DNA from: a virus
Strand: one strand, 5' to 3'
Length of the DNA stretch: 64,000 nt
Virus record (IMG/VR): IMGVR_UViG_3300024221_000009
Location: 27,387 to 91,386 of that record
Under the pieces are notes generated by a model. The model was given only the letters and a program-made list of their open reading frames with translations, was not told the origin of the DNA and did no database searches. The translations under genes were made by a program, and so were the position numbers. Shown here in pieces: positions 25,748 to 62,228 of the stretch. Position 1 is the stretch's first letter; every line of letters starts with the position of its first letter.

Positions 25748-27256
25748 TTGGTACTAACATTAACAGATGATAATCAATTTCTACGAATTGATGATGCTAC
25801 TGAACTTGAGTTAGAACAGATTACAATCTCCCTTACAAAAAGAATTGAAAGTTGGAGATTTAATCCGTTAGTAAAACGAGGAGTGTGGGATGGTTATGTC
25901 TCTTATATTAAAGATGACAAATGGATTCCAGCTGGACTATGGAGGCATGTTATACAAATTTGTAAAGATTATAAGATAGAGATTCAAATGAACGGAATAA
26001 AACGTTTAATTGATCCAGATATTAACGCAGAAGCATTTGAAGAATGGGCTCTTAATTTCTTTAAAGGTGCTGAGATAACTCCAAGAGATTATCAAATAGA
26101 AACAGCATATAACATACTTAAATTTAGAAAGTGTTTAGCGGAGTTGGCAACATCAGCTGGTAAAACTTTAATTAGTTTTATGACTGTTGCATATATGCTA
26201 GAAAAGAAAAAAGCTCAAAAAATATTATTTATAGTACCTAACGTATCTTTAGTTGTACAGGCCCATGAAGATTTTCATGAATATAATTACATGAATAAAG
26301 TTAATTTAAAGATTCAACAGATATATTCAGGTAAAAAAATTAAAAGTAATAAAAATATAATTATTGGTACATATCAATCTTTAGTAAAAAAAGATAAAGA
26401 ATATTTTAGTCAATTTGACGCTGTTTTAGTAGATGAAACTCACAAAGCAAAAAGCGCATCTATAAAAACAATATTACAAAAATGTACTAACGCAAAATAT
26501 AAATTTGGTCTTTCAGGAACAATTCCTAAAGATGGATCTCTTGATAAATTAACTCTTATGAGCCAGACTGGTCCAGTTATTAGTGAAGTCAAAGCGGCTT
26601 TTCTACAAAAACAAGGACATATTGCAAAATGTTTGGTTAAAGTAATTCAAATGAACTATGCAACAGAAAATCAAAGACAAGCGTTTCAAGAGCTTGCGCA
26701 GAACAAATATGATAGAAAGGATGTTTTCCAACTTGAACAAAATTTTATTATTAATAACGAAGCACGTCTTGATTTTATCTCAAGCGTTATTTCCAGAGTA
26801 CCCAGGAATAGCCTTGTCCTTTTTCACAGGATTGAACACGGTAAAAAATTATATGAAAAACTTAGACAAGAAAGCGATAAAAGAGTTTTTTATGTGGATG
26901 GCGGAACCAATACTGATATTAGAGAAGAATATAAAAAGAAAATGGAAGCCGGTGAAGAAGTTGTCATCGTTGCGTCCTATGGTACTTTCTCAACAGGGAT
27001 CTCGATTAAAAAAATACACAACATATTCTTTACGGAATCTTTTAAAAGTGAAGTGATTATCAGGCAATCAATAGGACGTGGTTTAAGGCAACATGAATCA
27101 AAGGACAAGGTTTTAATAATCGACTTTGTTGACGACATTAGAACGCAAGAGTGGGATAATTATCTATATAAACATGGTAAAGCTCGCCAGGCAATATATA
27201 AACAAGAAAAGTTTGATTATAATATTAAAATAGTCAATTTTGAAGGAGATATATAA
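25748..27256 (+). CDS. uvsW: SF2 DNA helicase UvsW-like (TTG start)
   Basis: PRDYQ, ATSAGKT, DETH, GLSGT, STGISI and QSIGRGLR motifs. Confidence 0.92.
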   Translation: MVLTLTDDNQFLRIDDATELELEQITISLTKRIESWRFNPLVKRGVWDGYVSYIKDDKWIPAGLWRHVIQICKDYKIEIQMNGIKRLIDPDINAEAFEEWALNFFKGAEITPRDYQIETAYNILKFRKCLAELATSAGKTLISFMTVAYMLEKKKAQKILFIVPNVSLVVQAHEDFHEYNYMNKVNLKIQQIYSGKKIKSNKNIIIGTYQSLVKKDKEYFSQFDAVLVDETHKAKSASIKTILQKCTNAKYKFGLSGTIPKDGSLDKLTLMSQTGPVISEVKAAFLQKQGHIAKCLVKVIQMNYATENQRQAFQELAQNKYDRKDVFQLEQNFIINNEARLDFISSVISRVPRNSLVLFHRIEHGKKLYEKLRQESDKRVFYVDGGTNTDIREEYKKKMEAGEEVVIVASYGTFSTGISIKKIHNIFFTESFKSEVIIRQSIGRGLRQHESKDKVLIIDFVDDIRTQEWDNYLYKHGKARQAIYKQEKFDYNIKIVNFEGDI

Positions 27257-27291: not shown

Positions 27292-29712
27292 ATGGCAAAA
27301 ATGAATAAAATCAGTTCTTTTCAAACTTTTTCTGAAGTAAGAGAGGCTGAAAATGCTGATAAACTACAACAAGAAAATCAAGCTAAAAGATTAGAGCTAA
27401 CAGAAAGAATAGGTAAAATATTAGATGAAATGGAAATAACATCTTTTGAAGACTTAGACGAAGAAGTTAGAGATCAATTAGTAGAAAAAACGTTCGGATT
27501 AGTTAAAGAAGGAGATAAAACAAAAGTTTCTAAAAAAGAAATTAAAATGCATCTGGATATGTTCCAAGCAGGAGACATCGATGGTAATGATTTATCACAA
27601 GCTATTTCTGCAATTATATTCGGAGAAGTAAAAGGACCGGGTATGGAATCTAAAGATTCTGAACAGGTTTCAGAAGCAACTGTTGTTATGGACGCAATAA
27701 ACCCTGATGATAAAGATTTCTTAAAATTCTTAAAAAAGAATAAAGTTAAAGTAATTGACACTGTAAAATCAGGCCCAAGTGGACATCCTGAAATTACAAT
27801 GCAAGGAAAAAGAAAAGATCTTGAAGCAGTATTAGCTGACGGTGAATTAGGATGGGATGATCCTGGTTTAGCAGAATTTATTGAAGAATCAATAAACATT
27901 TCAGAAGCAGTAATAGTTACTGGTAGAAGAGACGCTAAAAAAGTTTTAACAGCATACACTAAATTTTTCCAAAAATATCCAGCATTAGCTGATAGGAGAT
28001 TTGCAGGTTTACATTTAGGAGCAATCAAATCCTTAATGGTTTCTGCATTAACAGATGCTAATTTTCATAGAGAATCAGCAGCGTGCGGAAAGTCTATTAA
28101 AGGAGCAAAGCTTCAACCTGTTTTTATTAAGCCAATGGAATTAAATAAAACAGAAATTAAAATACCTGTTGGTAAAGTAGCATCTATTTTAGATGATAAT
28201 GCATCTCTTATTTCTGGTGCAGCCGGCTTTTCTGGTTTAGGTATTGCTGAAGGAACAGCATTATACTTAGATTCTCTTAAATATGTTAAAGAAGCAGAAG
28301 CAGTTATTGCATGTTTTAATTCTACGTTTGAAAGTGAAGTTACTGACGTAACAGAAGGTAATGCATTTTTAGGAGCTAGAGCTAAGGCTATTGAAGAAGA
28401 TGCTGAAGAATTTGAATTTAACGGTAAAAAATATCCAGTAATTAAAGAATCAGAAGAAGTTACTGAATCAGCCGAACCAAAGTGTAATAATAAAAAAGGA
28501 CATTTATATAAGCAAATTGATAAGGACGGAACGGTAGAATGCGTGCACTGTGGTCTAAGAAATTCATTAAGCGAATCAGAGGTTAATGAAGCTAAATCTT
28601 TTAAAAATACTGAAGATTTTGAAGCATTTTTAAAGGAAATCGATGCTATGCCAGAAAGAGCAGTTAGAAAGATAATGGGTAAAGAATATATCGATACTCC
28701 TGGTTTTTATGAAGATGAAAAGGATGATTATGATGATGTAATTGACTTCATGATTTCAAACATGGGTGCAGATATTTATCACCAATTAGAACAGTGGTGG
28801 GAAAACAATGTTCAAGAATCAGCAGTTACTGAAGCTAAATTTGTAAAAGATTTTGATAAAGATGTTTTAGATGCTGAAACCAAAGCAGATATAACAACTT
28901 ACTACCCTTCTGCTAAATTCTTTATAGGTAAATCAACCCACTTCTTCGGAGAATTAGATAAAAATTTATTTTTTAAAGCATATTATAAAGATTATGTAAA
29001 GAAGGCTGGTGGTAAAATCGATGGTGATTTTAAAATTGTAATGATATATTCTGAAAAAGGTAGAAATTTTGTACCTTTATTTACTAGAGAAGTTACTGAA
29101 TCAGTGGTTACTGAAGCTAAAATTAATTCTGACGAAGAGTTTAAAGAATATGCTACAACTGTTTTACAAAAAGCGTTTGGTGAAGATTATGACGAAGCAA
29201 AAGCAAACGAAGTTATTGATGGTATTTTAGCAAAAGTTGACGGAGATTACGGCGCTGCTGTAGGAATGTTAACATCTTCATTAGGAGAATCAGTAGTTAC
29301 TGAAAAAACATATAATAAAAAGTCTTTAATGAAAGCAATGAAAGCCGATGATGGTATGATACAATTAGGCAATGGTCAAGAATATGTTATCTACGCTTAC
29401 GGTAATGGTAATGATGATAACGACAATATGTGGGGAGATAAATCAATCTTTGCGTTAGACCAAGACGGCGAAGAGCATGAAATTGAATATTCTGATATTG
29501 TAAGTTATAATGAAGCTAACGCTGATGGAACTATTTCAGATGATGAAGACGAAAAAAGAGAAGAACTTTTAAATAGAGTTAAAGAACAAATGGAAGAGCT
29601 ATTAGCATCTGCTGAATTTGATGCTAAAGAAATTGGTGGTTCTTTTAGATCTCCTGGTATTATGTTTGATATTAGAAAACAACTTGATAAGCAAGTTAAA
29701 AAGTTTAAATAA
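27292..29712 (+). CDS. Modular polyprotein A, predicted internal head (cargo) protein with about 10 modules
   Basis: CTS-like SFQTFSEVRE. Recurrent linkers VSE|A, ISE|A, VTE|G, VTE|S, VNE|A, VTE|A (twice), VTE|K and YNE|A separate unrelated modules. Late promoter at 27248. Confidence 0.65.
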   Translation: MAKMNKISSFQTFSEVREAENADKLQQENQAKRLELTERIGKILDEMEITSFEDLDEEVRDQLVEKTFGLVKEGDKTKVSKKEIKMHLDMFQAGDIDGNDLSQAISAIIFGEVKGPGMESKDSEQVSEATVVMDAINPDDKDFLKFLKKNKVKVIDTVKSGPSGHPEITMQGKRKDLEAVLADGELGWDDPGLAEFIEESINISEAVIVTGRRDAKKVLTAYTKFFQKYPALADRRFAGLHLGAIKSLMVSALTDANFHRESAACGKSIKGAKLQPVFIKPMELNKTEIKIPVGKVASILDDNASLISGAAGFSGLGIAEGTALYLDSLKYVKEAEAVIACFNSTFESEVTDVTEGNAFLGARAKAIEEDAEEFEFNGKKYPVIKESEEVTESAEPKCNNKKGHLYKQIDKDGTVECVHCGLRNSLSESEVNEAKSFKNTEDFEAFLKEIDAMPERAVRKIMGKEYIDTPGFYEDEKDDYDDVIDFMISNMGADIYHQLEQWWENNVQESAVTEAKFVKDFDKDVLDAETKADITTYYPSAKFFIGKSTHFFGELDKNLFFKAYYKDYVKKAGGKIDGDFKIVMIYSEKGRNFVPLFTREVTESVVTEAKINSDEEFKEYATTVLQKAFGEDYDEAKANEVIDGILAKVDGDYGAAVGMLTSSLGESVVTEKTYNKKSLMKAMKADDGMIQLGNGQEYVIYAYGNGNDDNDNMWGDKSIFALDQDGEEHEIEYSDIVSYNEANADGTISDDEDEKREELLNRVKEQMEELLASAEFDAKEIGGSFRSPGIMFDIRKQLDKQVKKFK
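28447..29310 (+). repeat. Dispersed 24-bp linker repeats GAATCAGnRGTTAmTGAAGCTAAA between polyprotein modules
   Basis: Copies at 28573, 28816, 29098 and 29287. Variants at 28447, 34247 and 36642. Confidence 0.75.
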
Positions 29713-29720
29713 AAATAGAA

Positions 29721-29758
29721 AAAAAGATGACCTGGATTTTTCCGGGTCAAATCTTTTT
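29721..29758 (+). terminator. Intrinsic terminator after polyprotein A
   Basis: GACCTGGA-TTTT-TCCGGGTC stem with A and T flanks. Confidence 0.65.
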
Positions 29759-29760
29759 AT

Positions 29761-29772
29761 TATATTAGTAGT
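29761..29772 (+). promoter_or_regulatory. Host-type (Bacteroidota -7-like) promoter TATATTAGTAGT
   Basis: The 15-mer TTATATTAGTAGTAT is identical here and at 39498. It is one mismatch from TAnnTTTG. Confidence 0.5.
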
Positions 29773-30075
29773 ATGAAGAAAGCAAAATTATATGAAGAGT
29801 TTATCAACGAAGAAATCTATTTAACATATAGTGAAATCGTAGGTTATCAATTTGATAAGTTTTTAGAATCATATTTTAAACTAAATAAAGATAACAAAAC
29901 AGTTTACGATAAAAAAGAAGATTTTACGTATGGTTTTAGAAAAGGATCTAAAACTGCACATTGGAAATATGATCACGATAATTTCGAATTACACCACAGT
30001 GAAAAAGAATTTCATGTCTTAGGTCTTATAAATTTTTATAAACAAGCATCAAAGGGACATCCCTGGTCTAAATAA
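29773..30075 (+). CDS. Small internal-protein-like cargo with capsid-targeting N-terminus
   Basis: MKKAKLYEEFINE|E resembles the T4 IP CTS MKTYQEFIAE. Confidence 0.55.
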   Translation: MKKAKLYEEFINEEIYLTYSEIVGYQFDKFLESYFKLNKDNKTVYDKKEDFTYGFRKGSKTAHWKYDHDNFELHHSEKEFHVLGLINFYKQASKGHPWSK

Positions 30076-30085
30076 AACATACGCA

Positions 30086-31369
30086 ATGAAAATATTATCA
30101 TTTAAAGATTTCTTAATAGAAAGAGAAAATAAAGAAGTATTAGACTCTAAATTAATTTTAGAAGGTGGGGCAGCAGGTCACATGTCACATCCATTTGATG
30201 AAAAAGATTTGACATTTGCAGATTTTAAAAAGATAGTAACTGCTGGTCTTCAAGGTGAATTAAACTTTGAGGAAGAAGCAACTGAAAAAACGGATGGACA
30301 AAATGTATTTGCAACAGTTCAAGATGGAGAAGTAAAATTTGCCAGAAATAAAACTGAATTAGCAAATCCAATGGACTTGGCTACTTTTAAGAATAAGTTT
30401 GAAGGACATCCAAGTAAATTAGTACAAGATACTTTTCAATTTGCTGCAGAAGATTTAGCAAACTCATTAAATAAATTATCCCCTAAAGATTTAGAAGTTT
30501 TTGATAATGGTAAAAACTGGATGAACATGGAGTTAATTTACTCTAAGAATCCAAACGTTATCTACTATGACCGCGATGTTATTCAATTTCATGGTATAAA
30601 GAAAACTGATGGTGAAGGTAATACTATTGGAGAAGATAACAAACCAGCAAGATCAATTGCGAAAGCAATGCAAGATCTTAAAATTAATGTTGGTAAAACA
30701 TTTACAGTTATCCCACCTCAAATTATTAAATTAGGTAAAGATTTAGAATTTGATAAAAATCAATCTAAATTTATAAAACAAATAGAAGCGTTAAGAGATC
30801 GTTATAAATTAACAGACGCTGATGAAGTTTCTAGATATCATGAAATGTGGTGGAGAGAAACAATAGATACAAATTTCCCTGATTTACAACAAGACTATAA
30901 AGAAGGTTTATTATTAAGATGGGCTTATGGAAATAAGAAGTCTTTAAATATGAGAAGTCTTGCAAAGGAAATAGGAAAAGATGAAGCAGCTTCTGTTAAG
31001 AAATTCGACAAAGAAGATGTTAAAAAGAAATATAAAGAAAACATTAGACCTTTTGAAGATTTATTCTTAGAACTAGGATCTATAATTCTTAAAAATGCTT
31101 CTAATTTTGTAGCAGCAAATCCAGACAAGGAAATGCAAAGATTACATAATCAAATTAGAAGTGAATCAGAAAAAATTAAAAAAGGCGGAGGAGAAGCTCA
31201 AATTGCAAAAGTAGAAGCTGAACTTGCTAGGTTAGAAAGAATTGGTGGTGTAGAATCTATTATACCAACTGAAGGAATAGTCTTTGTATATAAAGGAAAA
31301 ACAATGAAATTAACAGGTACGTTTGCAGCCATTAATCAATTAATGGGAATTATAAAGTACGGAAGATAA
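30086..31369 (+). CDS. ATP-dependent ligase-superfamily nucleotidyltransferase (DUF6267-like) with a CTS-like leader
   Basis: Motif I TEKTDGQN, motif IV TEGIVF and motif V KLTG. The leader MKILSFKDFLIE...LILE| precedes GGAAGHMSHPFD. Confidence 0.65.
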   Translation: MKILSFKDFLIERENKEVLDSKLILEGGAAGHMSHPFDEKDLTFADFKKIVTAGLQGELNFEEEATEKTDGQNVFATVQDGEVKFARNKTELANPMDLATFKNKFEGHPSKLVQDTFQFAAEDLANSLNKLSPKDLEVFDNGKNWMNMELIYSKNPNVIYYDRDVIQFHGIKKTDGEGNTIGEDNKPARSIAKAMQDLKINVGKTFTVIPPQIIKLGKDLEFDKNQSKFIKQIEALRDRYKLTDADEVSRYHEMWWRETIDTNFPDLQQDYKEGLLLRWAYGNKKSLNMRSLAKEIGKDEAASVKKFDKEDVKKKYKENIRPFEDLFLELGSIILKNASNFVAANPDKEMQRLHNQIRSESEKIKKGGGEAQIAKVEAELARLERIGGVESIIPTEGIVFVYKGKTMKLTGTFAAINQLMGIIKYGR

Positions 31370-31379
31370 ATAATATAAT

Positions 31380-33263
31380 ATGGCACTTAAAAAATTAAGA
31401 GAACATTTTCAAGAAACTAATATTAATGAGTTTCATAGATTGTTAAAAAATAGAGTAATGGTTGTTGAAAAAATTTCAGCACCATCTTTTTATGTTAGAA
31501 GAAATGAAGAAAAATTTGAATTTTATAAATCTTCAAAATCTAAACCTCTAACAATAATAGATAGAACTATTATGTCTCTTTACGAAGTTGCCATTAAACA
31601 TATACAAAGTTTAAATCCTAAAAGTAAAAAACAATTACCAGATAATTATAGATTTGGTTTTGAATATTTACCAGAAGAAAAGGTTTCTGAATATGTATAC
31701 ACTAAAATACCTAAAAATACTTTAATATTAACGCACATCCACCAACTAGGTGAAAACGGAAAAGTAAAAAAGACAATTATAGATCCTTTAATTATAAAAA
31801 AATGGGCTACCGTATTAGAAGTACAACAACAAGAAGTTATATTTGACGGAACTTTAGATTCAACTCAAAAAGAAAAGCTTATTAATTTATTAGAAATGAA
31901 TGATAAAGCTTTTTCTGAGGCATTTGACTACGATATAGAAACGGATAAATTAGTTTCTTTCACAAAAGAAATATACAAGATATTTAATATTAATTCAACA
32001 TCAAGCGTTCTTCAAGAGGATTTAGAATCTGAAATAGATGGTTTAGTTTTAAATTTTGCTGAAGGTAAAAAAATACAATCTTATAAATTAGAAGATTTTA
32101 TTAGAAAACCTTTAAATGAAATTAGAGAAGGTTCTCATACATATCAAATAGCAATCGCAGATATATTAGAATATTTTGTTAATTATAATTTTTCAGAAAC
32201 AAATTTAGTTGAAGAAAATGCAGAAAAAAGATATATAGAATTAATCTCAGCAGCATTTAACAAATACGTTAATAAAAACGCAACAAGATATATTGGAGTT
32301 AATTTCCAAAATGCAGAATTTTCTTCTTCTAAATTATTTAATTTAAATACAACATTCATTAAAAACGAAAAAACATTAACACATGTTTCAAATGAAGTTT
32401 TATCAAGTTTATTTAAAATAACATTAGGTACTTTTAGAAAGCATAAAACGAAAGCAACAGATATATTAAATGATGATATGATATCTCAATTAAATAATAT
32501 AGTTGATAAAATCAATGATGTTGTTTTTCTAGAAAAAGCAGACGAAAATTCTATATATAATTATAAGAATTTTATGATGCATAACAATATAAAAAGCGAA
32601 GTAACTTTAAATGAAGCGCTAACTGTTAAGCACGCTGAGCAAGGTAAAGAATTAGTAAATATGTTCGTTGGTAGATTTCAGCCATTCACATTAGGACACG
32701 CCAAAGTTTTAGAAGCAATTCACAAACAAAATGGATATCCAGTTATTGTATTTTTAATTAAAGCAAAATCTAAAAAGAAAGGTGACGAATTTAGAAAACC
32801 TTATTCTGAAGATTTACAAATTAAAATGTTTAAACAAGTTCAAAAGCAATATAAATTCTTAAAAGAAATTATAGTTCTTGATAGAGGTGCAATTGATTAT
32901 ATGTTTAACGAATTAAGACCTAAATACGAGCCAGTACTTTGGGGAACAGGATCAGACAGAATGACTTCTTATGGATATCAAGTAAATAATGATTCTTATA
33001 GAGATCAATTAAATGTAAGATCCGATTTTGGTTTATTTGAAATACCAAGAACAGATAATAATATTTCAGCAACACAAGTAAGAAACGCAATGTTAGACGG
33101 TGATGAATCTTTATTTAAAAAGACTACCCCAAAGGCAATTCATAAAATGTATGATGTTTTAAAGTCTGAACTTGAAAAATCTATGGAGATGGTTGCAGCT
33201 TCTAAAGTTGTATCAGAATCCGTTATGACATTTCAAGAATATATGAATAAATTAAAATCATAA
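31380..33263 (+). CDS. Degenerate ligase-like domain fused to a HIGH-family (cytidylyl/adenylyl) nucleotidyltransferase
   Basis: N-part has VVEKISAP (eroded KxDG) and IDGLVL. After LNE|A comes GRFQPFTLGH...ISATQVR. C-terminal CTS-like VMTFQEYM. Confidence 0.7.
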   Translation: MALKKLREHFQETNINEFHRLLKNRVMVVEKISAPSFYVRRNEEKFEFYKSSKSKPLTIIDRTIMSLYEVAIKHIQSLNPKSKKQLPDNYRFGFEYLPEEKVSEYVYTKIPKNTLILTHIHQLGENGKVKKTIIDPLIIKKWATVLEVQQQEVIFDGTLDSTQKEKLINLLEMNDKAFSEAFDYDIETDKLVSFTKEIYKIFNINSTSSVLQEDLESEIDGLVLNFAEGKKIQSYKLEDFIRKPLNEIREGSHTYQIAIADILEYFVNYNFSETNLVEENAEKRYIELISAAFNKYVNKNATRYIGVNFQNAEFSSSKLFNLNTTFIKNEKTLTHVSNEVLSSLFKITLGTFRKHKTKATDILNDDMISQLNNIVDKINDVVFLEKADENSIYNYKNFMMHNNIKSEVTLNEALTVKHAEQGKELVNMFVGRFQPFTLGHAKVLEAIHKQNGYPVIVFLIKAKSKKKGDEFRKPYSEDLQIKMFKQVQKQYKFLKEIIVLDRGAIDYMFNELRPKYEPVLWGTGSDRMTSYGYQVNNDSYRDQLNVRSDFGLFEIPRTDNNISATQVRNAMLDGDESLFKKTTPKAIHKMYDVLKSELEKSMEMVAASKVVSESVMTFQEYMNKLKS

Positions 33264-33310
33264 ATAAATAAAGAATATATAATCTTATAATATAAAACAA
33301 AATAAAAGTC

Positions 33311-35521
33311 ATGGATAAATCACACTTTAATCAAGATGATAGAGTAGATGAAGGGAAAATAACAATAAAAAGACGTTATACTGAAAACTACCCTGCAAAA
33401 ACTGTTGGTAAATCAGCAAAAATAAGAAACAAAATGTTGGAAGCAATTTCGGACGGGGCTATTACCCAAGAAGAATTTGATTCTATCATAGCAGAATTAT
33501 CATCTGATTCAAAAAGATGGTTATCTCGTAATTCTAGGTTATTTAATATTACAGAGGCTGGAATAACATTAACAGGGTTAGGTAGAAAGATTTTATCTCA
33601 AATTACAGTAAATGAAAAAACAGAAAAGAATCCAGAAATATGGGTTCCTGGAAAATTTGATAAAGAAGTTTCTAAATTATCAGCTGATGAATTAACACTA
33701 GACAATATAAAAAAATTATCAAAAAAACATAGAGTATTTTTACAAGATGCAATAGCGTATGTTGAATATAGCTTCGATGTTGATATTGTAGAAAATAAAG
33801 AAAATAATATGAAAACAAAATTAGTATTTGAATCTTTCGGAGATTTTGTAAACTCATTAGATAAAAATAATGAAGAATTAAACGAAGGCACTAGAGGCCA
33901 ATTCGGAATGATTGATAAAAAAGGAAATATACAGTCAGTATATATGCATTATGATTCATATCCTGAAAACATTCTACCATTAATAAAAAGAGGTTACGGA
34001 AACTCTAAAAAAGTACAAGCAGTTATTGATAGAGGAGATACTTCTGGATTAGATAAAACAGTTGATACTATGAATTTCTATGAAGATGGTAGAAAGCCAA
34101 CTTCAGGTAAAAAAGCAGACATTGCACGTTATATTAAAAAAGCAGCTGATGATGGTGGAGCAGAATACATCTATTTATATGATGAGTCTGATAAAACTTG
34201 GTACATGGTTGATGTTTATGGAGACATGCAATTAGTTCCTGCATTTGAATCAGTAATTAATGAAGCTGTAAACGCAACTGCTTATATTAAAGCTGGTAAA
34301 TTAGGTTATAATGATCAATTCTTAGCAAAGAGATCTTTATCATGGACATTATCAGTTGACTTAGGTCTAAAAGCATCTGATGAATTTGTCGGACCATGGT
34401 TAGGATTCGATTATGTATCATTATATGCTATTGGTAAAAAAGGAGGAACAATTATTGATGATGCCTTAACTGGTAAATATACTTATGACGAATTAAAAGC
34501 AGCAGCAGCTGATTTTTTAGGTATTAAAGAATCAGAAGAAGCTTTAGGTGAATCAGAAGATACTGAACTTAATGAAGCATTTAAATCTTCTAAATTAAGA
34601 AATTTAGTAAATATGGATCAATCACAACGTGATGGATATGGTAAAGCAAGAAATTTAGCAGCTGCTATTTATGGATTATCAAAACTAAAATTAGATAAAA
34701 TTGAAGATTCTTCTTTAATTGATGTAGATCCTAAAGAAGCTTATAAAAAATATCAAAACAATAGAGACTATTTAGTTTTTTATATAGTAGACAACGAAAA
34801 AGAAAATGAATACAGCAAAGGTTCATTTACATCATTAATAAAACCAGGTATTTTAGCTTTAACCAGAGGAAAAGACTTTTTATCAGTTCAATATGTTCAA
34901 TCTAGAAATAGATCAGTTGATCGTACTTTAGGAAAAGATGATGGTAATGCAATTGGTGGTAATAAAAGATATTCTGGATATGATGCATCGGGTATTTCTT
35001 CAGTTGTAAGAGCTTCTAAATTAGCAGACAGAGCAATTGTAATTGATATTGTTAATGGTGGCGAAACTTCAAAAGAAGAAAGAAACGAAAGAGCAAGAGC
35101 AAAAGAAGGAGCTTTAGCTTTTAAATCTGACGCAGACTTTAAGAAAGCTAACAAGGCAAGATACCAAGAAATCTTATCAACTAAAGCTTCTAAGTTACCT
35201 CTTGATAAAATGGTTAATGACGCTATTGATGATTTAGGAAATCAAATTAAAGATGGTCTTAAGGCTAATAAAAAGACAGAATACGGAGAGCTTAAAATTG
35301 GAGAAAATTCTAAAGGTAGAGCAGTTAAAATCACAGATGCTTCAAACCACATGGGTAGAATCTTATCTGATTATCAAAGATATGTTGAATACATGGTAAA
35401 AGCAGAAGAAGAAAAAGGTAGAGATTATTCATCAGGATATTACGAAAAGAATTCAAAACAATACGCTAAAGATATTAAAGATGCAGTTAAAAAAATACCT
35501 ACGTTCGATTACGCTTGGTAA
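33311..35521 (+). CDS. Modular polyprotein B, predicted internal head (cargo) protein
   Basis: Linkers VDE|G, VNE|K, LNE|G, INE|A and LNE|A. Internal CTS-like MKTKLVFESFGDFVN at 33809. Late promoter at 33274. Confidence 0.65.
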   Translation: MDKSHFNQDDRVDEGKITIKRRYTENYPAKTVGKSAKIRNKMLEAISDGAITQEEFDSIIAELSSDSKRWLSRNSRLFNITEAGITLTGLGRKILSQITVNEKTEKNPEIWVPGKFDKEVSKLSADELTLDNIKKLSKKHRVFLQDAIAYVEYSFDVDIVENKENNMKTKLVFESFGDFVNSLDKNNEELNEGTRGQFGMIDKKGNIQSVYMHYDSYPENILPLIKRGYGNSKKVQAVIDRGDTSGLDKTVDTMNFYEDGRKPTSGKKADIARYIKKAADDGGAEYIYLYDESDKTWYMVDVYGDMQLVPAFESVINEAVNATAYIKAGKLGYNDQFLAKRSLSWTLSVDLGLKASDEFVGPWLGFDYVSLYAIGKKGGTIIDDALTGKYTYDELKAAAADFLGIKESEEALGESEDTELNEAFKSSKLRNLVNMDQSQRDGYGKARNLAAAIYGLSKLKLDKIEDSSLIDVDPKEAYKKYQNNRDYLVFYIVDNEKENEYSKGSFTSLIKPGILALTRGKDFLSVQYVQSRNRSVDRTLGKDDGNAIGGNKRYSGYDASGISSVVRASKLADRAIVIDIVNGGETSKEERNERARAKEGALAFKSDADFKKANKARYQEILSTKASKLPLDKMVNDAIDDLGNQIKDGLKANKKTEYGELKIGENSKGRAVKITDASNHMGRILSDYQRYVEYMVKAEEEKGRDYSSGYYEKNSKQYAKDIKDAVKKIPTFDYAW

Positions 35522-35522
35522 T

Positions 35523-37004
35523 ATGAAAACAATGTATACATCATTTAGCGAATTTTCAAGAGGGATTAAAGAAAACATTTCACCAGAAAGTATTGGAGGA
35601 ATGGGAGATGTTATATTACCGAATGGTGATGAACTAGGTTCTGGCGATATTCCTTCTGAAGAAGATGATGAAAATAAAGAAAAAATAAATACAAAATCTA
35701 TGGATTTTAATAGTTTTATAAACAAATCAACGGTTAGTAAATTAGTCATTGAGAAATCAGCAACAGATACTCTAGCGGATGATGTTTCTGGAGAATTATA
35801 TATTGCAAAACTTAAAGGCAAGTCAGCTACTATTAAAGCAACGACTACGACAAAGACATGGGATGATGGAGTCCCGGTATTAAAGTATTTAGCAAGAGGT
35901 AAAAGTAAATCAATGTCTTTTGATTTATATCAAAGACCTTTTCAAGTGGTACACGACTATGCACATGGCTGGTGGTACTTCACAGATGGTGGAAAATGGT
36001 ACGGATTGCACGTAAGCGACGGTTATAGTGAAGCTGCTGATTTACCATTCGATATGCAAATTCCAGAAAACAAAATACAAGAAGGTGTTATGTCTGACAT
36101 TCACCAAATGATAGGTAATCATAAAACTTTTGATTCATTTCAAAAAGAATTCTTTAAAGAATATGGAGATAATAAAGCTATGAAAAAAACCAAAGACTTT
36201 TTAGAATGGCTAGAAGCTTTATATTCAGATTCACAATATGCAGTATCTGAGGCAAGACCAGGTACTTACACGTACCAAATGGATAGTGAAGGAAATACTA
36301 GAAAAGTATTACCGCCATATTATGGTAATTCAGAACTTCATGATAAATCAAAAGAACTATTTAAAAAACCATGGAAAAAGCTTAGTGATAAACAACAAGA
36401 TGAAGTTTTAGCAGCCTTTGAAATAGTTGAAGCAAGATCAATTGCAAAAATACAAAAAGAATATGGAAGTGTAGTAACTGATATGAAAGATCTTGTTAAA
36501 GATTATGTAAAAATGTCAGATGATAATTCTGAAAAAGCTAAGACAAGACAATTACTTATAGATTTAACTTCTAAGAAAAAATCATTAATGTCAGAATTAG
36601 ATGACGCAGTAGGTATCAAAGATTTAAATATTGAATTAGCAGAATCAGTAAATGAATCAATGAGTTCTTACTATTTCACGAGTCCTAGCGAATACGGTCA
36701 ATTTGCAAATGAAGCACCTGCAAAGGGTGAAACTAAATATTTAGTAATGGCTACTAATAAAGCAAACTTTAATGGTCAAGAAATTAGACTAGAAGGTGGA
36801 GTTAGATTTGGTTCAACCTCTAAAAAAGAAATTTTAGGAGTTTTTGATAAAGAATCAGAAGCTTTAACATTTTATAAATCAGCTATGAAAAAACCAGAAG
36901 GAACATTTGTTTCTTTCTCAATGGGAACGGTTGTCGGTGAAACTAAATTTAGATCGCAATATACTGAAATTCAAGGATATTTAGCAACTGCAAAGGTAAA
37001 ATAA
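35523..37004 (+). CDS. Modular polyprotein C, predicted internal head (cargo) protein
   Basis: ATG 35523, one base after the upstream stop, gives CTS-like MKTMYTSFSEFSRGIKE. Linkers VIE|K, IQE|G, VSE|A, IVE|A and VNE|S. Confidence 0.62.
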   Translation: MKTMYTSFSEFSRGIKENISPESIGGMGDVILPNGDELGSGDIPSEEDDENKEKINTKSMDFNSFINKSTVSKLVIEKSATDTLADDVSGELYIAKLKGKSATIKATTTTKTWDDGVPVLKYLARGKSKSMSFDLYQRPFQVVHDYAHGWWYFTDGGKWYGLHVSDGYSEAADLPFDMQIPENKIQEGVMSDIHQMIGNHKTFDSFQKEFFKEYGDNKAMKKTKDFLEWLEALYSDSQYAVSEARPGTYTYQMDSEGNTRKVLPPYYGNSELHDKSKELFKKPWKKLSDKQQDEVLAAFEIVEARSIAKIQKEYGSVVTDMKDLVKDYVKMSDDNSEKAKTRQLLIDLTSKKKSLMSELDDAVGIKDLNIELAESVNESMSSYYFTSPSEYGQFANEAPAKGETKYLVMATNKANFNGQEIRLEGGVRFGSTSKKEILGVFDKESEALTFYKSAMKKPEGTFVSFSMGTVVGETKFRSQYTEIQGYLATAKVK

Positions 37005-41238: not shown

Positions 41239-42279
41239 ATGAAAGTAGCAATAACGTCAGTATTTTCAAACTTAACGTACAATAGTAAAAACCACAGAGG
41301 ATTAGAGGTAACATACTTTAAAAAGCTTTTAGAAGAAAACAAATATGACGTTGATCTAATTGGTAAAAAAAATAGAAATACAGAAGAATTTGATTTCTAT
41401 AAAAACTACGCTGACACTGATTGGAATTCTTATGAAGCAGTTTTTATTCAATTAAGTACTGCTAATTTCTTTGGCGGTGTTGTTGGAGAACATACTGAAC
41501 CAATTGCAAGAGCCCTTGCAGGATATGGTGGTAAAATATATGTTTTAGTAAATGATCCTCGGATCGATTTCTTAAACCCAGTGGATAAGTTAAAAAGATT
41601 TAATCTACTTCAAGATCTTAGCTCAGAGTGGTCCGAGATCATTGAGGAAGCAACATATTTATTTCCAGGTAAAGACATTAGTAAATTCTTAGGAAGAACA
41701 CCTAAAAATTGGCAAAAACTAGATTGGTTTACATATATGTTTAAGCACAGAATGGCTGATAAGTTAAATAATACAAAAACAACAAACGCACTTTTTGATT
41801 TTGATGCTCCTAAAAAAGAATGGGATGCCATTTACTATGGAGATAATCGAGCAGCCTTTAGAGAACAACAAGTTCGAAAGTATATGCCACATAGCGAAAA
41901 GAGTTTATTAGTAGGTTATAAAACTAAAAAAGTTCCAACGACCTTTGCAAAAAAGATGGAACACTCAGTTTTATTAGATACTATTTCAAAAAGTAAAGCA
42001 AGTTTAATATTAGGAGATGATGAACATTTAAATAATGTGACAACATTCCGCTTTTATGAAACTATGGCAAGTGATTGTTTGGCAGCGATCCAAATCGAAT
42101 ACGATCCAGAAATGGAATTAATACAAGACCCTGTATTGCGTGATCAATTATATGTAAAATCGTCAAAGGATGTTGAGAAATTAGTAGCATCTTATTCGGA
42201 TGATTTAATTGCAAGACAGAAGAAAGAATTAAGAAACATATTTAACAGATTAGATATAACCTTTAAAATAAACAAGTAA
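41239..42279 (+). CDS. bgt: DNA beta-glucosyltransferase (T4 BGT-like)
   Basis: Collinear matches to T4 BGT: MKVAI, NFFGG, IYVLVNDPR, DAIYYGDNR...RE and LILGD...NNVTTFRFYETMASD. Length is similar. Confidence 0.85.
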   Translation: MKVAITSVFSNLTYNSKNHRGLEVTYFKKLLEENKYDVDLIGKKNRNTEEFDFYKNYADTDWNSYEAVFIQLSTANFFGGVVGEHTEPIARALAGYGGKIYVLVNDPRIDFLNPVDKLKRFNLLQDLSSEWSEIIEEATYLFPGKDISKFLGRTPKNWQKLDWFTYMFKHRMADKLNNTKTTNALFDFDAPKKEWDAIYYGDNRAAFREQQVRKYMPHSEKSLLVGYKTKKVPTTFAKKMEHSVLLDTISKSKASLILGDDEHLNNVTTFRFYETMASDCLAAIQIEYDPEMELIQDPVLRDQLYVKSSKDVEKLVASYSDDLIARQKKELRNIFNRLDITFKINK

Positions 42280-60259: not shown

Positions 60260-61855
60260 ATGGCAGGATTCGTAGATAGAAATGGACCATTAAGCTACAA
60301 CAAGAAATCATTTACACTGAGAGATCAGCTAAAAAAGCTAAGCTCTTTTGGTATGTATTATGATGATTTAGTACTTAGGCAATCACAGGCAATAGGTCCG
60401 ATTGAAGACGCAATAGGTTTTGGTCAAATAAACCAAATGGGAGTAGACTCAGATGATATGTATGGAGCGTTTGCAGCTCTTTCAATGTCTGATACAACAA
60501 TGCGTAAGAATATACCGTTCTTCGATCAAAATTACGAAAGTAAGCGTAATGAATTAAGAGCATTTTCAACGTATGATGAAATCGAAGATATTTTAGATAT
60601 TCTTTGTGATGAATCAGTTGTTTATGATAATAAAAACTTTTTTGCAACTCCTGAACTTATAGGAATGGATGTTAGTGAAGAAGTTGAAAAATATTTACAA
60701 AAAGCATATCGAGATATTTATCAATATTTTGGATTTAATCAAGACCAATCGGCATGGTACTTTTATAGAAAGTTCTTAGTTGATGGTTATCTTTCTTTTG
60801 AAATAGTTTATAACCCTGAGCAAACTCAAATTATTGGATTTAAAGAAATTGATCCTATAACATTAATTCCAGGATATAATAAAACGGATGGTAAGAAAGT
60901 ATGGACTCAATTTAAAGACGATCCAGTTAAAGAGAGAGTTCTATATGACTCTCAGATCATTTATATTTCTTATTCATCAATTACCACAGCCTCGAGAGTA
61001 AGTTACTTAGAGAGACTTATAAGGTCATTTAATTTAATGAGAATTATGGAACACACTAGAGTAATCTGGGCTGTTACTAATTCTTCTTATAGAATGAAAT
61101 TTATAATCCCAGTTGGTGGTAAATCTAAAACAAGAGCAAAACAATCACTTGCTCAGTTAATGAATAACTATAAAGAAGTTGTAGATTTTGATTGGGAATC
61201 TGGAAGTATGCATACTGACGGTAAACCAATGTTACAATTTAATAAAGAATATTGGTTACCTTCGAAAGATGGAGAACAGCCGGAGATTGAAACACTAGGA
61301 GGAGAAGGTCCTGAATTATCAGATACAGAGGCTCTTAAATATTTCTCAGATAAATTAAAAATGGTTTCTAAAATACCATTTAATAGATTCATGTATGAAG
61401 ATGGTGGTGGAGATTTCAATTTAGCTGCCGATGGTATGATTAGAGATGAGATCAAGTTTGGTAAATTTATTAAACGTTTAAGATCTACATTCCAAGAAAT
61501 TTTAGTTAAACCATTATACATTCAAATGTGTTTAAAATTTCCTGAATTTGAAAATGATGCATCGTTTAAAACACAAATATCTCTACAATTCCTTGAAGAG
61601 AATATGTTTGCTGAATTAAAACAAATGGAAATCATGGAACGTAGAGTAGAATTTATTAGTTCTGTAAAAGATTCTCTAGTTGAAACAAACCCAGAAACAA
61701 TGGAAGAAGATTACTACTTTGATTCAGACTTCTTAGTTGATAGATATTTAAAACTAAGTCCAGATGATAAAGCAGCTAATGCAGCTTATAAAGCAAGAAA
61801 GGCTGCTAAAGATGCAGAAGAACCTGAAGTTGACCCAATGGACGCTGGAATGTAA
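60260..61855 (+). CDS. Portal protein (gp20-like)
   Basis: FLVDG, SYLER, LMRIME, YWLP..DG..EIETL.G and F.KFI.RLR..F motifs. Confidence 0.92.
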   Translation: MAGFVDRNGPLSYNKKSFTLRDQLKKLSSFGMYYDDLVLRQSQAIGPIEDAIGFGQINQMGVDSDDMYGAFAALSMSDTTMRKNIPFFDQNYESKRNELRAFSTYDEIEDILDILCDESVVYDNKNFFATPELIGMDVSEEVEKYLQKAYRDIYQYFGFNQDQSAWYFYRKFLVDGYLSFEIVYNPEQTQIIGFKEIDPITLIPGYNKTDGKKVWTQFKDDPVKERVLYDSQIIYISYSSITTASRVSYLERLIRSFNLMRIMEHTRVIWAVTNSSYRMKFIIPVGGKSKTRAKQSLAQLMNNYKEVVDFDWESGSMHTDGKPMLQFNKEYWLPSKDGEQPEIETLGGEGPELSDTEALKYFSDKLKMVSKIPFNRFMYEDGGGDFNLAADGMIRDEIKFGKFIKRLRSTFQEILVKPLYIQMCLKFPEFENDASFKTQISLQFLEENMFAELKQMEIMERRVEFISSVKDSLVETNPETMEEDYYFDSDFLVDRYLKLSPDDKAANAAYKARKAAKDAEEPEVDPMDAGM

Positions 61856-61886: not shown

Positions 61887-62228
61887 ATGAAAAAAGTAAG
61901 ATTATACGAAGATTTTATAGCCGAAGACGCAAAAACGGTTACACCTGATTCTGATATTAAAATTGATGATTTTTCAACAGACGATGGGATTGAACTTAAA
62001 TCTCAAGAAATTATCGGAGCAATAGTTAGTTCTGAGACTGAAAAGGAATTTAAAGAATATTTTTTCGATCAGTATGGTAATACAGCTTTTACTGAAGCAG
62101 ATATGCAAAATTTAGTTGTAATGTATAACGAATATTTAGAAGAAATTACAGCGAAAGAAACTGAAGAGGAAGAAGAAGAGAAAAAAGAAGAAGAAGGTGG
62201 AGAGGAAGATCCTTTAGCAGATATTTAA
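61887..62228 (+). CDS. Acidic prohead core protein (gp67/68-like position) with CTS
   Basis: MKKVRLYEDFIAE|D and a Glu-rich tail. Lies between portal and protease. Confidence 0.6.
   Translation: MKKVRLYEDFIAEDAKTVTPDSDIKIDDFSTDDGIELKSQEIIGAIVSSETEKEFKEYFFDQYGNTAFTEADMQNLVVMYNEYLEEITAKETEEEEEEKKEEEGGEEDPLADI

What the first reader, a model, noticed from the sequence alone, without database searches (positions are those of the whole stretch)
27292..37004. Protease-processed polyprotein arrays: a candidate modular system for delivering effectors in the virion
Seen: three long ORFs (27292-29712, 33311-35521, 35523-37004) are strings of mostly 30-150-aa modules with unrelated composition, including a Cys/His Zn-ribbon-like unit, helical bundles and alpha/beta units. 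Modules are bounded by a recurrent linker of the form ES(x)n[VIL][TNSV]E|[AGSK], about 20 sites in total. Each ORF has a capsid-targeting-like motif, and two sit behind the late-promoter motif. Established: T4 prohead protease gp21 cuts after Glu in (I/L)-x-E, and T4 internal proteins are packaged via a CTS, processed, and injected; IPI* inhibits the GmrSD nuclease. Inference: this phage packages polyproteins that its own gp21 (62298+) cuts into about 20 small proteins delivered with the DNA, probably anti-defence or host-takeover effectors. One targeting signal would load many cargos.
Basis: partly seen in the sequence, partly recalled or inferred. Interest (0 to 1): 0.92.

Follow-up and report, generated by a model that had tools for sequence, protein, structure and literature searches.

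The report
Phage head-cargo polyproteins with protease linkers
An uncultured marine relative of phage T4 strings about twenty small unrelated protein modules into three long proteins, joined by short peptides that fit the cutting rule of its own head-maturation protease. The modules are therefore probably loaded into the capsid behind one address tag and cut apart there, which is a swappable-cassette version of T4's internal proteins that I did not find described in the papers I could search.

Summary
ORFs 27292-29712, 33311-35521 and 35523-37004 are chains of small modules bounded by [ILV]-x-E|[SAGK] sites, mostly as a double linker E|S-V-V-[TN]-E|A. That linker occurs 452 times in 239 homologues, against 19 expected.

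Four independent lines place module boundaries at the linkers:
- BLAST breakpoints, with permuted module order, in over 1000 metagenomic homologues.
- AlphaFold2 low-confidence segments, with pTM about 0.3.
- Five in-frame cassette gains or losses in two phages that are 90-96% identical in DNA.
- Stand-alone small proteins made of a T4-like address tag plus one module, giving the same predicted mature N-terminus.

The leader module is N-terminal in 109 of 109 homologues. The contig encodes a T4-type portal and an S77 prohead protease. An address tag close to T4's, as I recall it, starts the gene between them.

Most likely (0.7) these are capsid-targeted polyproteins cut by the prohead protease into internal proteins. 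No cleavage, packaging or injection has been measured. No module has a known function, so the anti-defence role is conjecture.

I class this as a new variant of the T4 internal-protein system. This scan has already reported the same architecture on other DNA (eight follow-up reports). I found no paper describing it.

The parts
27248..27256 (+). Promoter-like motif GATATATAA, 44 nt upstream of polyprotein A
   Evidence: The same 9-mer precedes 8806, 61887 and the protease gene 62298. All five copies are on the + strand and upstream of genes. A late-promoter function is inferred.
27292..29712 (+). Polyprotein A, 806 aa: an N-terminal leader followed by about 10 modules of 31-150 aa
   Evidence: Over 1000 homologues carry the modules in permuted order.
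27292..27510 (+). Leader module (aa 1-73) with a capsid-targeting-like SSFQTF near the N-terminus, ending LVKE|G
   Evidence: It is at the N-terminus in 109 of 109 homologues and never internal. S9 and F10 are invariant.
27886..27906 (+). Double linker IEE|SINISE|A (E199, E205)
   Evidence: pLDDT is below 50 over residues 189-207. E205 is invariant. Homologue breakpoints fall at 201-206.
28447..28467 (+). Double linker IKE|SEEVTE|S (E386, E392)
   Evidence: Low-pLDDT segment 384-406. It is the left breakpoint of the three-cassette deletion in L083.
28468..28575 (+). Cys/His Zn-ribbon-like module (aa 393-428)
   Evidence: C398, H404, C419 and C422 are conserved in homologues. Weak YheV match, E 0.02. 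One source names a homologue 'Zn ribbon'.
28573..28590 (+). Double linker LSE|SEVNE|A (E428, E433)
   Evidence: Left breakpoint of the cassette that is absent from L082. It is a member of the DNA repeat family D1.
28591..28818 (+). Cassette aa 434-509, present here and absent from a phage that is 96% identical
   Evidence: Window 28593-28820 has no counterpart in L082. The flanks join as LSE|SVIKE|AEE...VTE|AKFVKDF.
28816..28833 (+). Double linker VQE|SAVTE|A (E509, E514)
   Evidence: T513, E514 and A515 are nearly invariant.
29098..29115 (+). Double linker VTE|SVVTE|A (E603, E608)
   Evidence: E608 is the only invariant column across 54 mosaic homologues. It is the right breakpoint of the L083 deletion.
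29287..29304 (+). Double linker LGE|SVVTE|K (E666, E671)
   Evidence: Low-pLDDT segment 664-672. Breakpoints at 665/669.
29728..29760 (+). Terminator-like hairpin followed by a T run, after polyprotein A
   Evidence: Read directly from the sequence. Not scored with the terminator scanner.
29773..30075 (+). 100-aa protein with a capsid-targeting-like start, MKKAKLYEEFINE
   Evidence: No family match.
30086..31369 (+). 427-aa protein with a capsid-targeting-like start, MKILSFKDFLIE|R
   Evidence: No family match.
31380..33263 (+). Interleaved 627-aa gene with a C-terminal NMNAT/cytidylyltransferase-like domain. Whether it belongs to the cargo set is uncertain.
   Evidence: PF01467, E 1.6e-10. 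NCBIfam match. The same PHROG family (3041) is embedded in 2 of 54 homologous polyproteins.
33274..33282 (+). Promoter-like motif AATATATAA, 37 nt upstream of polyprotein B
   Evidence: The same 9-mer lies 31 nt upstream of the portal gene and 24 nt upstream of 15881.
33311..35521 (+). Polyprotein B, 736 aa: degenerate leader, winged-helix-like module, three variable modules, and a conserved 314-aa C-terminal domain
33887..34249 (+). Module aa 193-313, a member of phrog_1987, which is a stand-alone small protein in cyanophages and Streptococcus phages
   Evidence: Residues 193-302 match profile positions 2-117 of 128, E 8.7e-17. The stand-alone gene L081:2998-3384 starts MGTRS, the same N-terminus as a cut after LNE|GTRG would give.
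34247..34264 (+). Double linker AFE|SVINE|A (E313, E318)
   Evidence: Left breakpoint of the cassette absent from L082, and the site of a 132-nt insertion in L083.
34529..34576 (+). Triple linker IKE|SEEALGE|SEDTELNE|A (E407, E414, E422)
   Evidence: Low-pLDDT segment 406-423. Right breakpoint of the L082 deletion.
34577..35518 (+). Conserved basic C-terminal domain (aa 423-736, net charge +12), always C-terminal in homologues
   Evidence: Covered by 119 of 119 listed homologues. pLDDT is mostly 70-90. No fold or family match.
35523..37004 (+). Polyprotein C, 493 aa: capsid-targeting start MKTMYTSFSEF...IKE|N followed by about 6 modules
   Evidence: The start follows directly on the stop of B, so the two are probably co-transcribed.
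36066..36083 (+). Double linker IPE|NKIQE|G (E182, E187 in 493-aa numbering)
   Evidence: Stand-alone homologues of the preceding module end at the equivalent PFE/PFD residues. P0420 starts at the next module.
36642..36656 (+). Double linker LAE|SVNE|S (E374, E378)
   Evidence: The stand-alone homologue P0392 has an address tag plus ...DINE|SMSSYYF. That gives the same predicted mature N-terminus as here, SVNE|SMSSYYF.
60260..61855 (+). T4-type portal protein
   Evidence: PF07230, E 3e-70.
61887..62228 (+). 113-aa acidic protein in the gp67/gp68 position, starting MKKVRLYEDFIAE
   Evidence: The Y-x-x-F-I-A-E pattern matches T4's capsid targeting sequence as I recall it. Residues 4 and 7 are the ones that matter for targeting in T4 (PMC9026906).
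62298..63998 (+). Prohead protease (S77) fused to an acidic scaffold-like region; cut off by the end of the contig
   Evidence: PF03420, 44.5 bits against a cut-off of 27. It has 38 [VIL]xE sites. The complete 694-aa form in L012 has repeated [ILV]AE|K.

Best explanation
The three ORFs are capsid-cargo polyproteins of a T4-like phage.

Proposed mechanism (every step inferred):
1. Each ORF is made together with the head genes.
2. Its N-terminal leader carries a T4-type capsid targeting signature: two aromatic residues three positions apart near the N-terminus. The leader takes the whole chain into the prohead core.
3. The phage's own S77 prohead protease cuts after Glu at each linker, usually at two sites five residues apart ([ILV]-x-E|S-V-V-[TN]-E|A).
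4. This releases about 20 folded products of 31-314 aa plus small linker peptides.
5. The folded products are too large to leave the shell. They stay with the DNA as internal proteins and most likely enter the host at infection.

Shown here by computation:
- the motif enrichment;
- module boundaries at the linkers, by four independent lines of evidence;
- the N-terminal leader fixed in position while the other modules move;
- stand-alone address-tag-plus-module versions of the same modules;
- cassette gain and loss exactly at linkers between near-identical phages;
- a T4-type head module on the same contig.

What the modules do is unknown. Early-acting host-takeover or counter-defence roles are the likeliest guess (about 0.35), by analogy with T4 IPI* and Alt.
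For: Motif: 11, 5 and 3 sites in the three ORFs, against 0-1 in 42 of the other 45 ORFs. The double linker occurs 452 times against 18.6 expected in homologues, with P3 hydrophobic, P1 Glu and P1' Ser/Ala.

Boundaries at linkers:
- Homologue HSPs end at 69, 123-128, 201-206, 390-392, 434-439, 505-516, 601-609, 665-671 and 737-742, with the order permuted.
- Segments cut at the linker form families of tightly similar length.
- AlphaFold2 gives pTM 0.28 and 0.31. In ORF A, 15 of 17 candidate Glu sites lie in pLDDT<50 segments that cover 24% of the chain, and a 16th lies one residue from such a segment. In ORF B, 8 of the 8 sites retained as linkers do so.
- All five indels longer than 20 nt between the window (25-39 kb) and phages L082 (96% identical) and L083 (90%) are in-frame cassettes with breakpoints at linkers.

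Leader: N-terminal in 109 of 109 homologues. [FY]xx[FYW] occurs within the first 16 residues in 312 of 500 homologues, against 101 of 482 in a control window.

Stand-alone forms: an address tag plus one module, with the same predicted mature N-terminus (SMSSYYF) as the embedded module. The phrog_1987 module starts at profile position 2.

Protease: PF03420 on the contig. Its scaffold region is full of [ILV]xE. The major capsid proteins of relatives keep P-I-I-E|S at residue 20. An address tag close to T4's starts the gene between portal and protease.

Shared promoter-like motif with the head genes.

Established knowledge: T4 internal proteins are targeted by a 10-residue capsid targeting sequence and processed by gp21 after Glu, and fusions behind that sequence are packaged and delivered (PMC9026906, PMC3012670).
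Against: - No virion, proteomic or expression data exist for this uncultured phage.
- The protease's specificity is inferred from its family and from motif patterns, not measured.
- The contig ends inside the protease gene, so this phage's own major capsid protein could not be examined.
- The motif also occurs inside folded domains (E320 and E334 of A, E82 of B), so not every match can be a site.
- The leader of ORF A has no conserved cleavage site right after the aromatic pair. The leader of ORF B is degenerate.
- By a rough split at the sites, most pieces are acidic (pI 4-5.5), unlike the T4 internal proteins that the Black review calls basic.
- The genes lie 25 kb from the head genes, among replication and sugar-nucleotide genes.
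- No module has a functional annotation.
Confidence: 0.7

Rival explanations
1. The proteins are prohead-core or scaffold accessories, like T4 gp22, gp67 and gp68. They enter the core and are cut, but the pieces serve assembly or fill space. They are then expelled or stay inert, and are not delivered effectors.
For: - The conserved winged-helix-like and basic C-terminal parts of ORF B are in all 119 listed homologues, as expected of a core component.
- Two modules of ORF A prefer the C-terminus: 77 of 117 and 30 of 32 copies.
- Most modules are acidic, like the scaffold.
- T4 IPIII affects head assembly (PMC9026906).
Against: - The modules are folded domains of 6-35 kDa, too large to leave through shell pores as T4 scaffold peptides do. 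This is my inference.
- Cassettes are gained and lost between phages 90-96% identical. That fits accessory cargo better than an assembly part.
- One module is elsewhere a stand-alone, untagged small gene among small hypothetical genes of cyanophages.
Confidence: 0.17
2. The chains are not cleaved. They are ordinary multi-domain proteins, and the conserved linker is only a flexible joint and a recombination site that keeps cassette swaps in frame.
For: - Linker DNA is more alike than the amino acids require. The Ser codon is TCA in 9 of 9 linkers, against 33% genome-wide. GTT and ACT are also fixed.
- Junctions show 6-16 nt of microhomology.
Against: - The linker keeps exactly the features of a T4-type protease site (P3 hydrophobic, P1 Glu, small P1'), twice, at a fixed spacing of five residues.
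- Stand-alone forms place the same site between the address tag and the module.
- A purely flexible linker would not need an invariant Glu.
- The two roles are not exclusive.
Confidence: 0.08
3. They are polyvalent proteins in the sense of Iyer et al. 2017: multi-domain conflict proteins that are released by a peptidase domain embedded in the same chain.
For: They have many domains in one chain, a phage origin and likely capsid packaging, all of which fit the general concept (PMC5512222).
Against: - No peptidase or any other Pfam domain was found in the three ORFs or in 51 diverse homologues. Only DUFs matched.
- None of the enzymatic domains typical of that class is present.
- The processing sites fit a protease acting in trans.
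Confidence: 0.03

Closest known systems
Phage T4 internal proteins IPI, IPII, IPIII and Alt: capsid targeting sequence plus gp21 processing (Mullaney and Black 1996; reviews PMC9026906, PMC3012670)
   Same: - An N-terminal tag with two key aromatic residues three positions apart, followed by a hydrophobic-x-Glu cut site.
- A gp21-family (S77) prohead protease in the same genome.
- Mature products of similar size: 8-20 kDa in T4, 6-35 kDa predicted here.
- A variable, non-conserved cargo set.
- Engineered fusions behind the T4 tag are packaged, processed and delivered.
   Different: - In T4 each internal protein has its own gene and its own tag. Here up to about 10 modules share one leader and are separated by internal, mostly doubled, cut sites.
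- Modules are swapped as in-frame cassettes at the linkers.
- There is no sequence similarity to T4 IPs.
- Most modules are acidic.
- Nothing has been measured for this phage.
Processed head and ejection proteins of giant phages phiKZ, 201phi2-1 and SPN3US (PMC10052503, PMC5694885)
   Same: - A diverged gp21-type protease cuts after Glu at a short motif.
- Several head proteins are cut at more than one site.
- A large mass of ejected internal protein is present.
   Different: - There the extra cuts chop up long N-terminal propeptides, and each gene yields one mature product. Here each piece is a conserved folded module.
- The motif there has a small residue at P3 in the phiKZ-type logo, as I recall it. 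Here P3 is hydrophobic, as in T4.
- tblastn of ORF A against 50,697 phage records found no homologue.
Polyvalent proteins of phages and conjugative elements (Iyer, Burroughs, Anand, de Souza, Aravind 2017; PMC5512222)
   Same: The same idea: many unrelated domains in one chain, packaged and delivered with the DNA, then released by proteolysis.
   Different: - Those chains carry recognisable enzymes and an embedded zincin-like peptidase.
- These carry small domains of unknown function and no peptidase. They rely on the head-maturation protease acting in trans and on a T4-type tag.
Viral polyproteins of RNA viruses
   Same: One translation product is cut at repeated short sites into many proteins.
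   Different: This is an analogy only. Here processing would happen inside the assembling capsid, on cargo rather than on replication or structural proteins.

Membership tests
T4-type capsid-targeted internal proteins | N-terminal capsid targeting sequence: aromatic residues at i and i+3 near the N-terminus, followed by a processing site ending in Glu | tested here: met
   - ORF C: MKTMYTSFSEF...IKE|N.
- ORF A: SSFQTFSEVRE|A.
- ORF B is degenerate but aligns with MNFQDFLNE|G of homologues.
- 312 of 500 homologues have the aromatic pair in the first 16 residues, against 21% in a control window.
T4-type capsid-targeted internal proteins | A gp21-family (peptidase S77) prohead protease encoded by the same phage | tested here: met
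   PF03420, 44.5 bits against a cut-off of 27, at 62298+, next to a T4-type portal.
T4-type capsid-targeted internal proteins | Cut sites of the form hydrophobic-x-Glu followed by a small residue | tested here: met
   Linker logo: P3 I/L/V/Y/A, P1 Glu, P1' Ser; then Val at P3, Thr/Asn at P2, Glu at P1 and Ala/Gly/Ser at P1'. This is sequence fit only.
T4-type capsid-targeted internal proteins | Actual cleavage by the protease, presence in the virion and ejection into the host | not testable with these tools
   The phage is uncultured and no proteomic data were at hand.
T4-type capsid-targeted internal proteins | Sequence relationship to T4 IPI, IPII, IPIII or Alt | tested here: not met
   No Pfam or PHROG family of internal proteins matched. 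T4 IPs are themselves unrelated to one another apart from the tag (PMC3012670), so this is not a strict requirement.
Polyvalent proteins (Iyer et al. 2017) | Embedded peptidase (zincin-like MPTase) and recognisable conflict enzymes in the same chain | tested here: not met
   Pfam scans of the three ORFs and of 51 diverse homologues found only DUF5824, DUF3008, DUF6329 and one sub-threshold hit.
phiKZ-type processed inner-body and ejection proteins | Homology to the inner-body or ejection protein families of phiKZ-like phages | tested here: not met
   tblastn of ORF A against the phage collection gave no match. PHROGs gave none.
phrog_1987 (small stand-alone phage proteins of unknown function) | Full-length match to the family profile | tested here: met
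   ORF B residues 193-302 match profile positions 2-117 of 128, E 8.7e-17. 14 of 54 homologous polyproteins carry the family. The stand-alone gene in cyanophage ACG-2014f starts MGTRS.

The most novel reading that the evidence does not exclude
The linkers have two jobs. As peptide they are doubled cut sites for the head protease. As DNA they are short conserved repeats at which cassettes recombine in frame. Together with a single leader, this would make a natural plug-in system. Any small gene, including one that is a stand-alone gene in other phages such as phrog_1987, could be captured into the capsid cargo and delivered ready-made with the DNA. That would give a fast-evolving pre-packaged arsenal against host defences in a large group of marine T4-like phages.
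Probability: 0.35. Interest if true: 0.85.

Novelty: new variant of a known kind. Interest (0 to 1): 0.72.

Why it matters
T4's capsid targeting sequence is the textbook way for a phage to load proteins into its head, one gene and one tag per protein. If these polyproteins are processed as proposed, a large uncultured group of T4-like phages uses the same machinery differently. ORF A alone has more than 1000 homologues in the protein library. One leader would load many cargo modules at fixed stoichiometry, and the cargo would be re-assorted by in-frame cassette exchange.

This would:
- define a searchable signature (leader plus doubled linker) for finding hundreds of candidate injected proteins of unknown function;
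- explain why these long ORFs have no family matches;
- offer a natural design for multi-cargo loading of T4-based delivery particles;
- give module boundaries precise enough to express each piece alone and test it.

Tried and rejected
- Chance motif: rejected by shuffling and by comparison with the other ORFs.
- Near or protein-level matches in 50,697 phage records for the locus or ORF A: none.
- Function of modules:
  - Pfam, PHROGs and NCBIfam gave nothing named.
  - PDB sequence profiles gave only low-complexity helical hits.
  - Foldseek against PDB gave no match at E <= 0.001 for either model.
  - The VIA wide search gave only common arrangements: a winged helix at Z 7-7.6 for ORF B residues 30-102, and helical bundles. 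Whole-chain models are poor queries, so single modules remain barely tested.
  - BFVD gave weak hits to small uncharacterised phage proteins.
  - The protein atlas gave no usable hit.
- T4's own late promoter TATAAATA: 8 copies, all inside coding sequence, none upstream of these genes. The motif shared with the head genes is [AG]ATATATAA instead.
- An RNA-ligase-like reading of the EKTDGQ motif in the 30086 gene: no family or structure support.
Related DNA was taken from IMG/VR instead.
- Complex prediction, read laying and the look-up of sequencing runs were not used, because none could show cleavage.

Full report
**What the window is.** The window is the last 64 kb of a 91-kb viral contig, about 30% G+C, with nearly all genes on the + strand. 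It encodes a T4-type portal (PF07230, E 3e-70). At 62298 it encodes a prohead protease of family S77 (PF03420, 44.5 bits) fused to a very acidic scaffold-like region. The portal's nearest named relative is an uncultured 462-kb phage, LR756500, at 59% identity. Homologues come from Tara Oceans and other metagenomes. The flagged locus lies between primase/helicase genes and sugar-nucleotide, beta-glucosyltransferase and polymerase genes. It is 25 kb from the head genes.

**The observation.** The three ORFs exist. The third starts at 35523, immediately after the stop of the second. Reading the sites shows a more specific form. Most linkers are double, [ILV]-x-E|S-x-V-[TN]-E|A, with the two Glu residues five apart. 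In 239 homologues this double linker occurs 452 times, against 18.6 +/- 4.3 after shuffling. Its logo has a hydrophobic P3, Glu at P1 and Ser or Ala at P1' at both sites. I count 22 linker positions in the three ORFs.

**Are the linkers module boundaries?** Four independent lines say yes.

- *Homologue breakpoints.* ORF A has over 1000 homologues. BLAST alignments break at residues 69, about 125, about 203, about 391, about 436, about 510, about 605, about 668 and about 740, and the pieces occur in different orders. ORFs B and C behave the same way. Segments cut at the linker fall into families with tightly similar lengths.
- *AlphaFold2.* The models of A and B have pTM 0.28 and 0.31, which does not indicate a fixed arrangement of the domains. 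In A, 15 of 17 candidate Glu sites lie in pLDDT<50 segments that cover 24% of the chain, and a 16th lies one residue from such a segment. In B, all 8 sites retained as linkers do. One motif match in B (E82) sits in the wing hairpin of a winged-helix-like domain and is not a linker.
- *Cassette indels.* Two IMG/VR phages are 96% and 90% identical in DNA across window 25-39 kb. They differ from the window only by five indels longer than 20 nt, and all five are in these genes, in frame and at linkers. In ORF A, aa 434-510 is absent from L082, aa 393-606 is absent from L083, and L083 has an extra cassette just before E128. In ORF B, aa 319-418 is absent from L082, and L083 has an extra cassette after E318.
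- *Stand-alone forms.* Many small proteins consist of a tag such as MKNIKTFENFITE| plus one module. P0392 reads ...DINE|SMSSYYF where ORF C reads ...SVNE|SMSSYYF. ORF B residues 193-302 match phrog_1987 from profile position 2. The stand-alone cyanophage gene starts MGTRS, which is what a cut after LNE|GTRG would recreate.

**The leader.**
- The first about 70 residues of ORF A are at the N-terminus in 109 of 109 homologues, while the other modules move about.
- Of 500 homologues, 312 have [FY]xx[FYW] within the first 16 residues, against 21% in a control window. The consensus is M-x-K-[IL]-x-S-F-x-x-F.
- In T4, residues 4 and 7 of the ten-residue capsid targeting sequence matter for targeting, and residues 8 and 10 for processing (PMC9026906).
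- The 113-aa gene between portal and protease sits where T4 has gp67 and gp68. It starts MKKVRLYEDFIAE, close to T4's tag as I recall it.
- The two genes after ORF A start MKKAKLYEEFINE and MKILSFKDFLIE.

**The protease.**
- Its specificity is not measured.
- Its scaffold part has 38 [VIL]xE sites.
- The complete form in relative L012 repeats [ILV]AE|K every 15 residues.
- The capsid proteins of all relatives examined keep P-I-I-E|S at residue 20.
- These points are consistent with the T4 rule but do not prove it.

**Expression.** [AG]ATATATAA lies 24-44 nt upstream of ORFs A and B, the portal, the protease, the gene between them and two large genes at 8806 and 15881. Its count in the window is not above chance, and only its placement is telling. 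ORF A ends with a terminator-like hairpin.

**Linker DNA.** The P1' Ser codon is TCA in 9 of 9 linkers, against 33% of Ser codons in the window. Val is GTT and Thr is ACT throughout. Indel junctions show 6-16 nt of overlap. The linkers are therefore also conserved as DNA, which fits recombination at the linkers. Selection for in-frame joints is not excluded.

**Function.**
- No module has a named family or a convincing fold match.
- By a rough split at the sites, most pieces are acidic. The 150-aa module of A, the winged-helix-like module and the C-terminal domain of B, and the last module of C are basic.
- The conserved ends of ORF B are in every listed homologue and may be a core head component.
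- The anti-defence reading rests only on analogy with T4 IPI* and Alt (PMC3012670) and on cassette turnover.

**Comparison with what is known.**
- T4 internal proteins share the tag, the protease family and the product sizes, but each has its own gene.
- Giant-phage head proteins are cut several times, but within propeptides (PMC10052503).
- Polyvalent proteins share the concept but carry their own peptidase and known enzymes (PMC5512222).
- Five literature searches found no description of tag-led polyproteins cut by a prohead protease. The library lacks most subscription journals.
- This scan has reported the same architecture in other genomes. Those are unchecked AI notes, not independent evidence.

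**Verdict.** The packaging-and-cutting reading is well supported in silico (0.7) but has not been measured. The effector role is open. It is a new variant of the T4 internal-protein system.

Noticed in passing
window 30086-31369: A 427-aa protein with a capsid-targeting-like start (MKILSFKDFLIE|R). It contains EKTDGQ, which resembles the KxDG nucleotidyl-transferase motif of ligases. No family or solved-structure match supports this.
   Followed up: partly
window 31380-33263: A 627-aa protein whose C-terminal third is NMNAT/cytidylyltransferase-like (PF01467). It ends ...VSESVMTFQEYMNKLKS, a tag-like string at the C-terminus. The same PHROG family (3041) is embedded in 2 of 54 homologous polyproteins, so enzymes may also travel as cargo.
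   Followed up: partly
window 62298-63998 and L012:12320-14404: The prohead protease and a scaffold-like region are fused in one gene (694 aa in the complete relative). It has 15-residue repeats ending [ILV]AE|K and a long, very acidic E/T/V-rich stretch. In T4 these are separate genes, 21 and 22.
   Followed up: partly
window 27292-29712, modules aa 609-666 and 746-806: Two modules strongly prefer the C-terminal end of homologues (77 of 117 and 30 of 32 copies). This hints at a second, C-terminal role such as anchoring or targeting. T4 Alt is processed at both ends.
   Followed up: no
window 27886-36656 (linker codons): The Ser at P1' of the linkers is always TCA (9 of 9, against 33% of Ser codons in the window). 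The Val and Thr codons are also fixed, so the linkers are conserved as DNA beyond what the peptide requires.
   Followed up: yes
window 41239-42279: A homologue of beta-glucosyltransferase (phrog_7922, E 1.5e-20). It suggests glucosylated DNA, which in T4 is the setting in which IPI* counters GmrSD.
   Followed up: no
contig upstream of the window (genome 8203-8742 and 9149-9871): Two more ORFs start with tag-like strings (MKFIKTFEDW..., MAKLKSFEQFLSE|M), so the cargo set is dispersed over the genome.
   Followed up: no
L012:16104-17153: In a relative, a 349-aa gene just after the capsid gene starts MIDKFENWFNKINE|K and has a hydrophobic Gly/Ala-rich stretch. It is another tag-like head-region protein.
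   Followed up: no
I did not check whether they are linkers.
   Followed up: no
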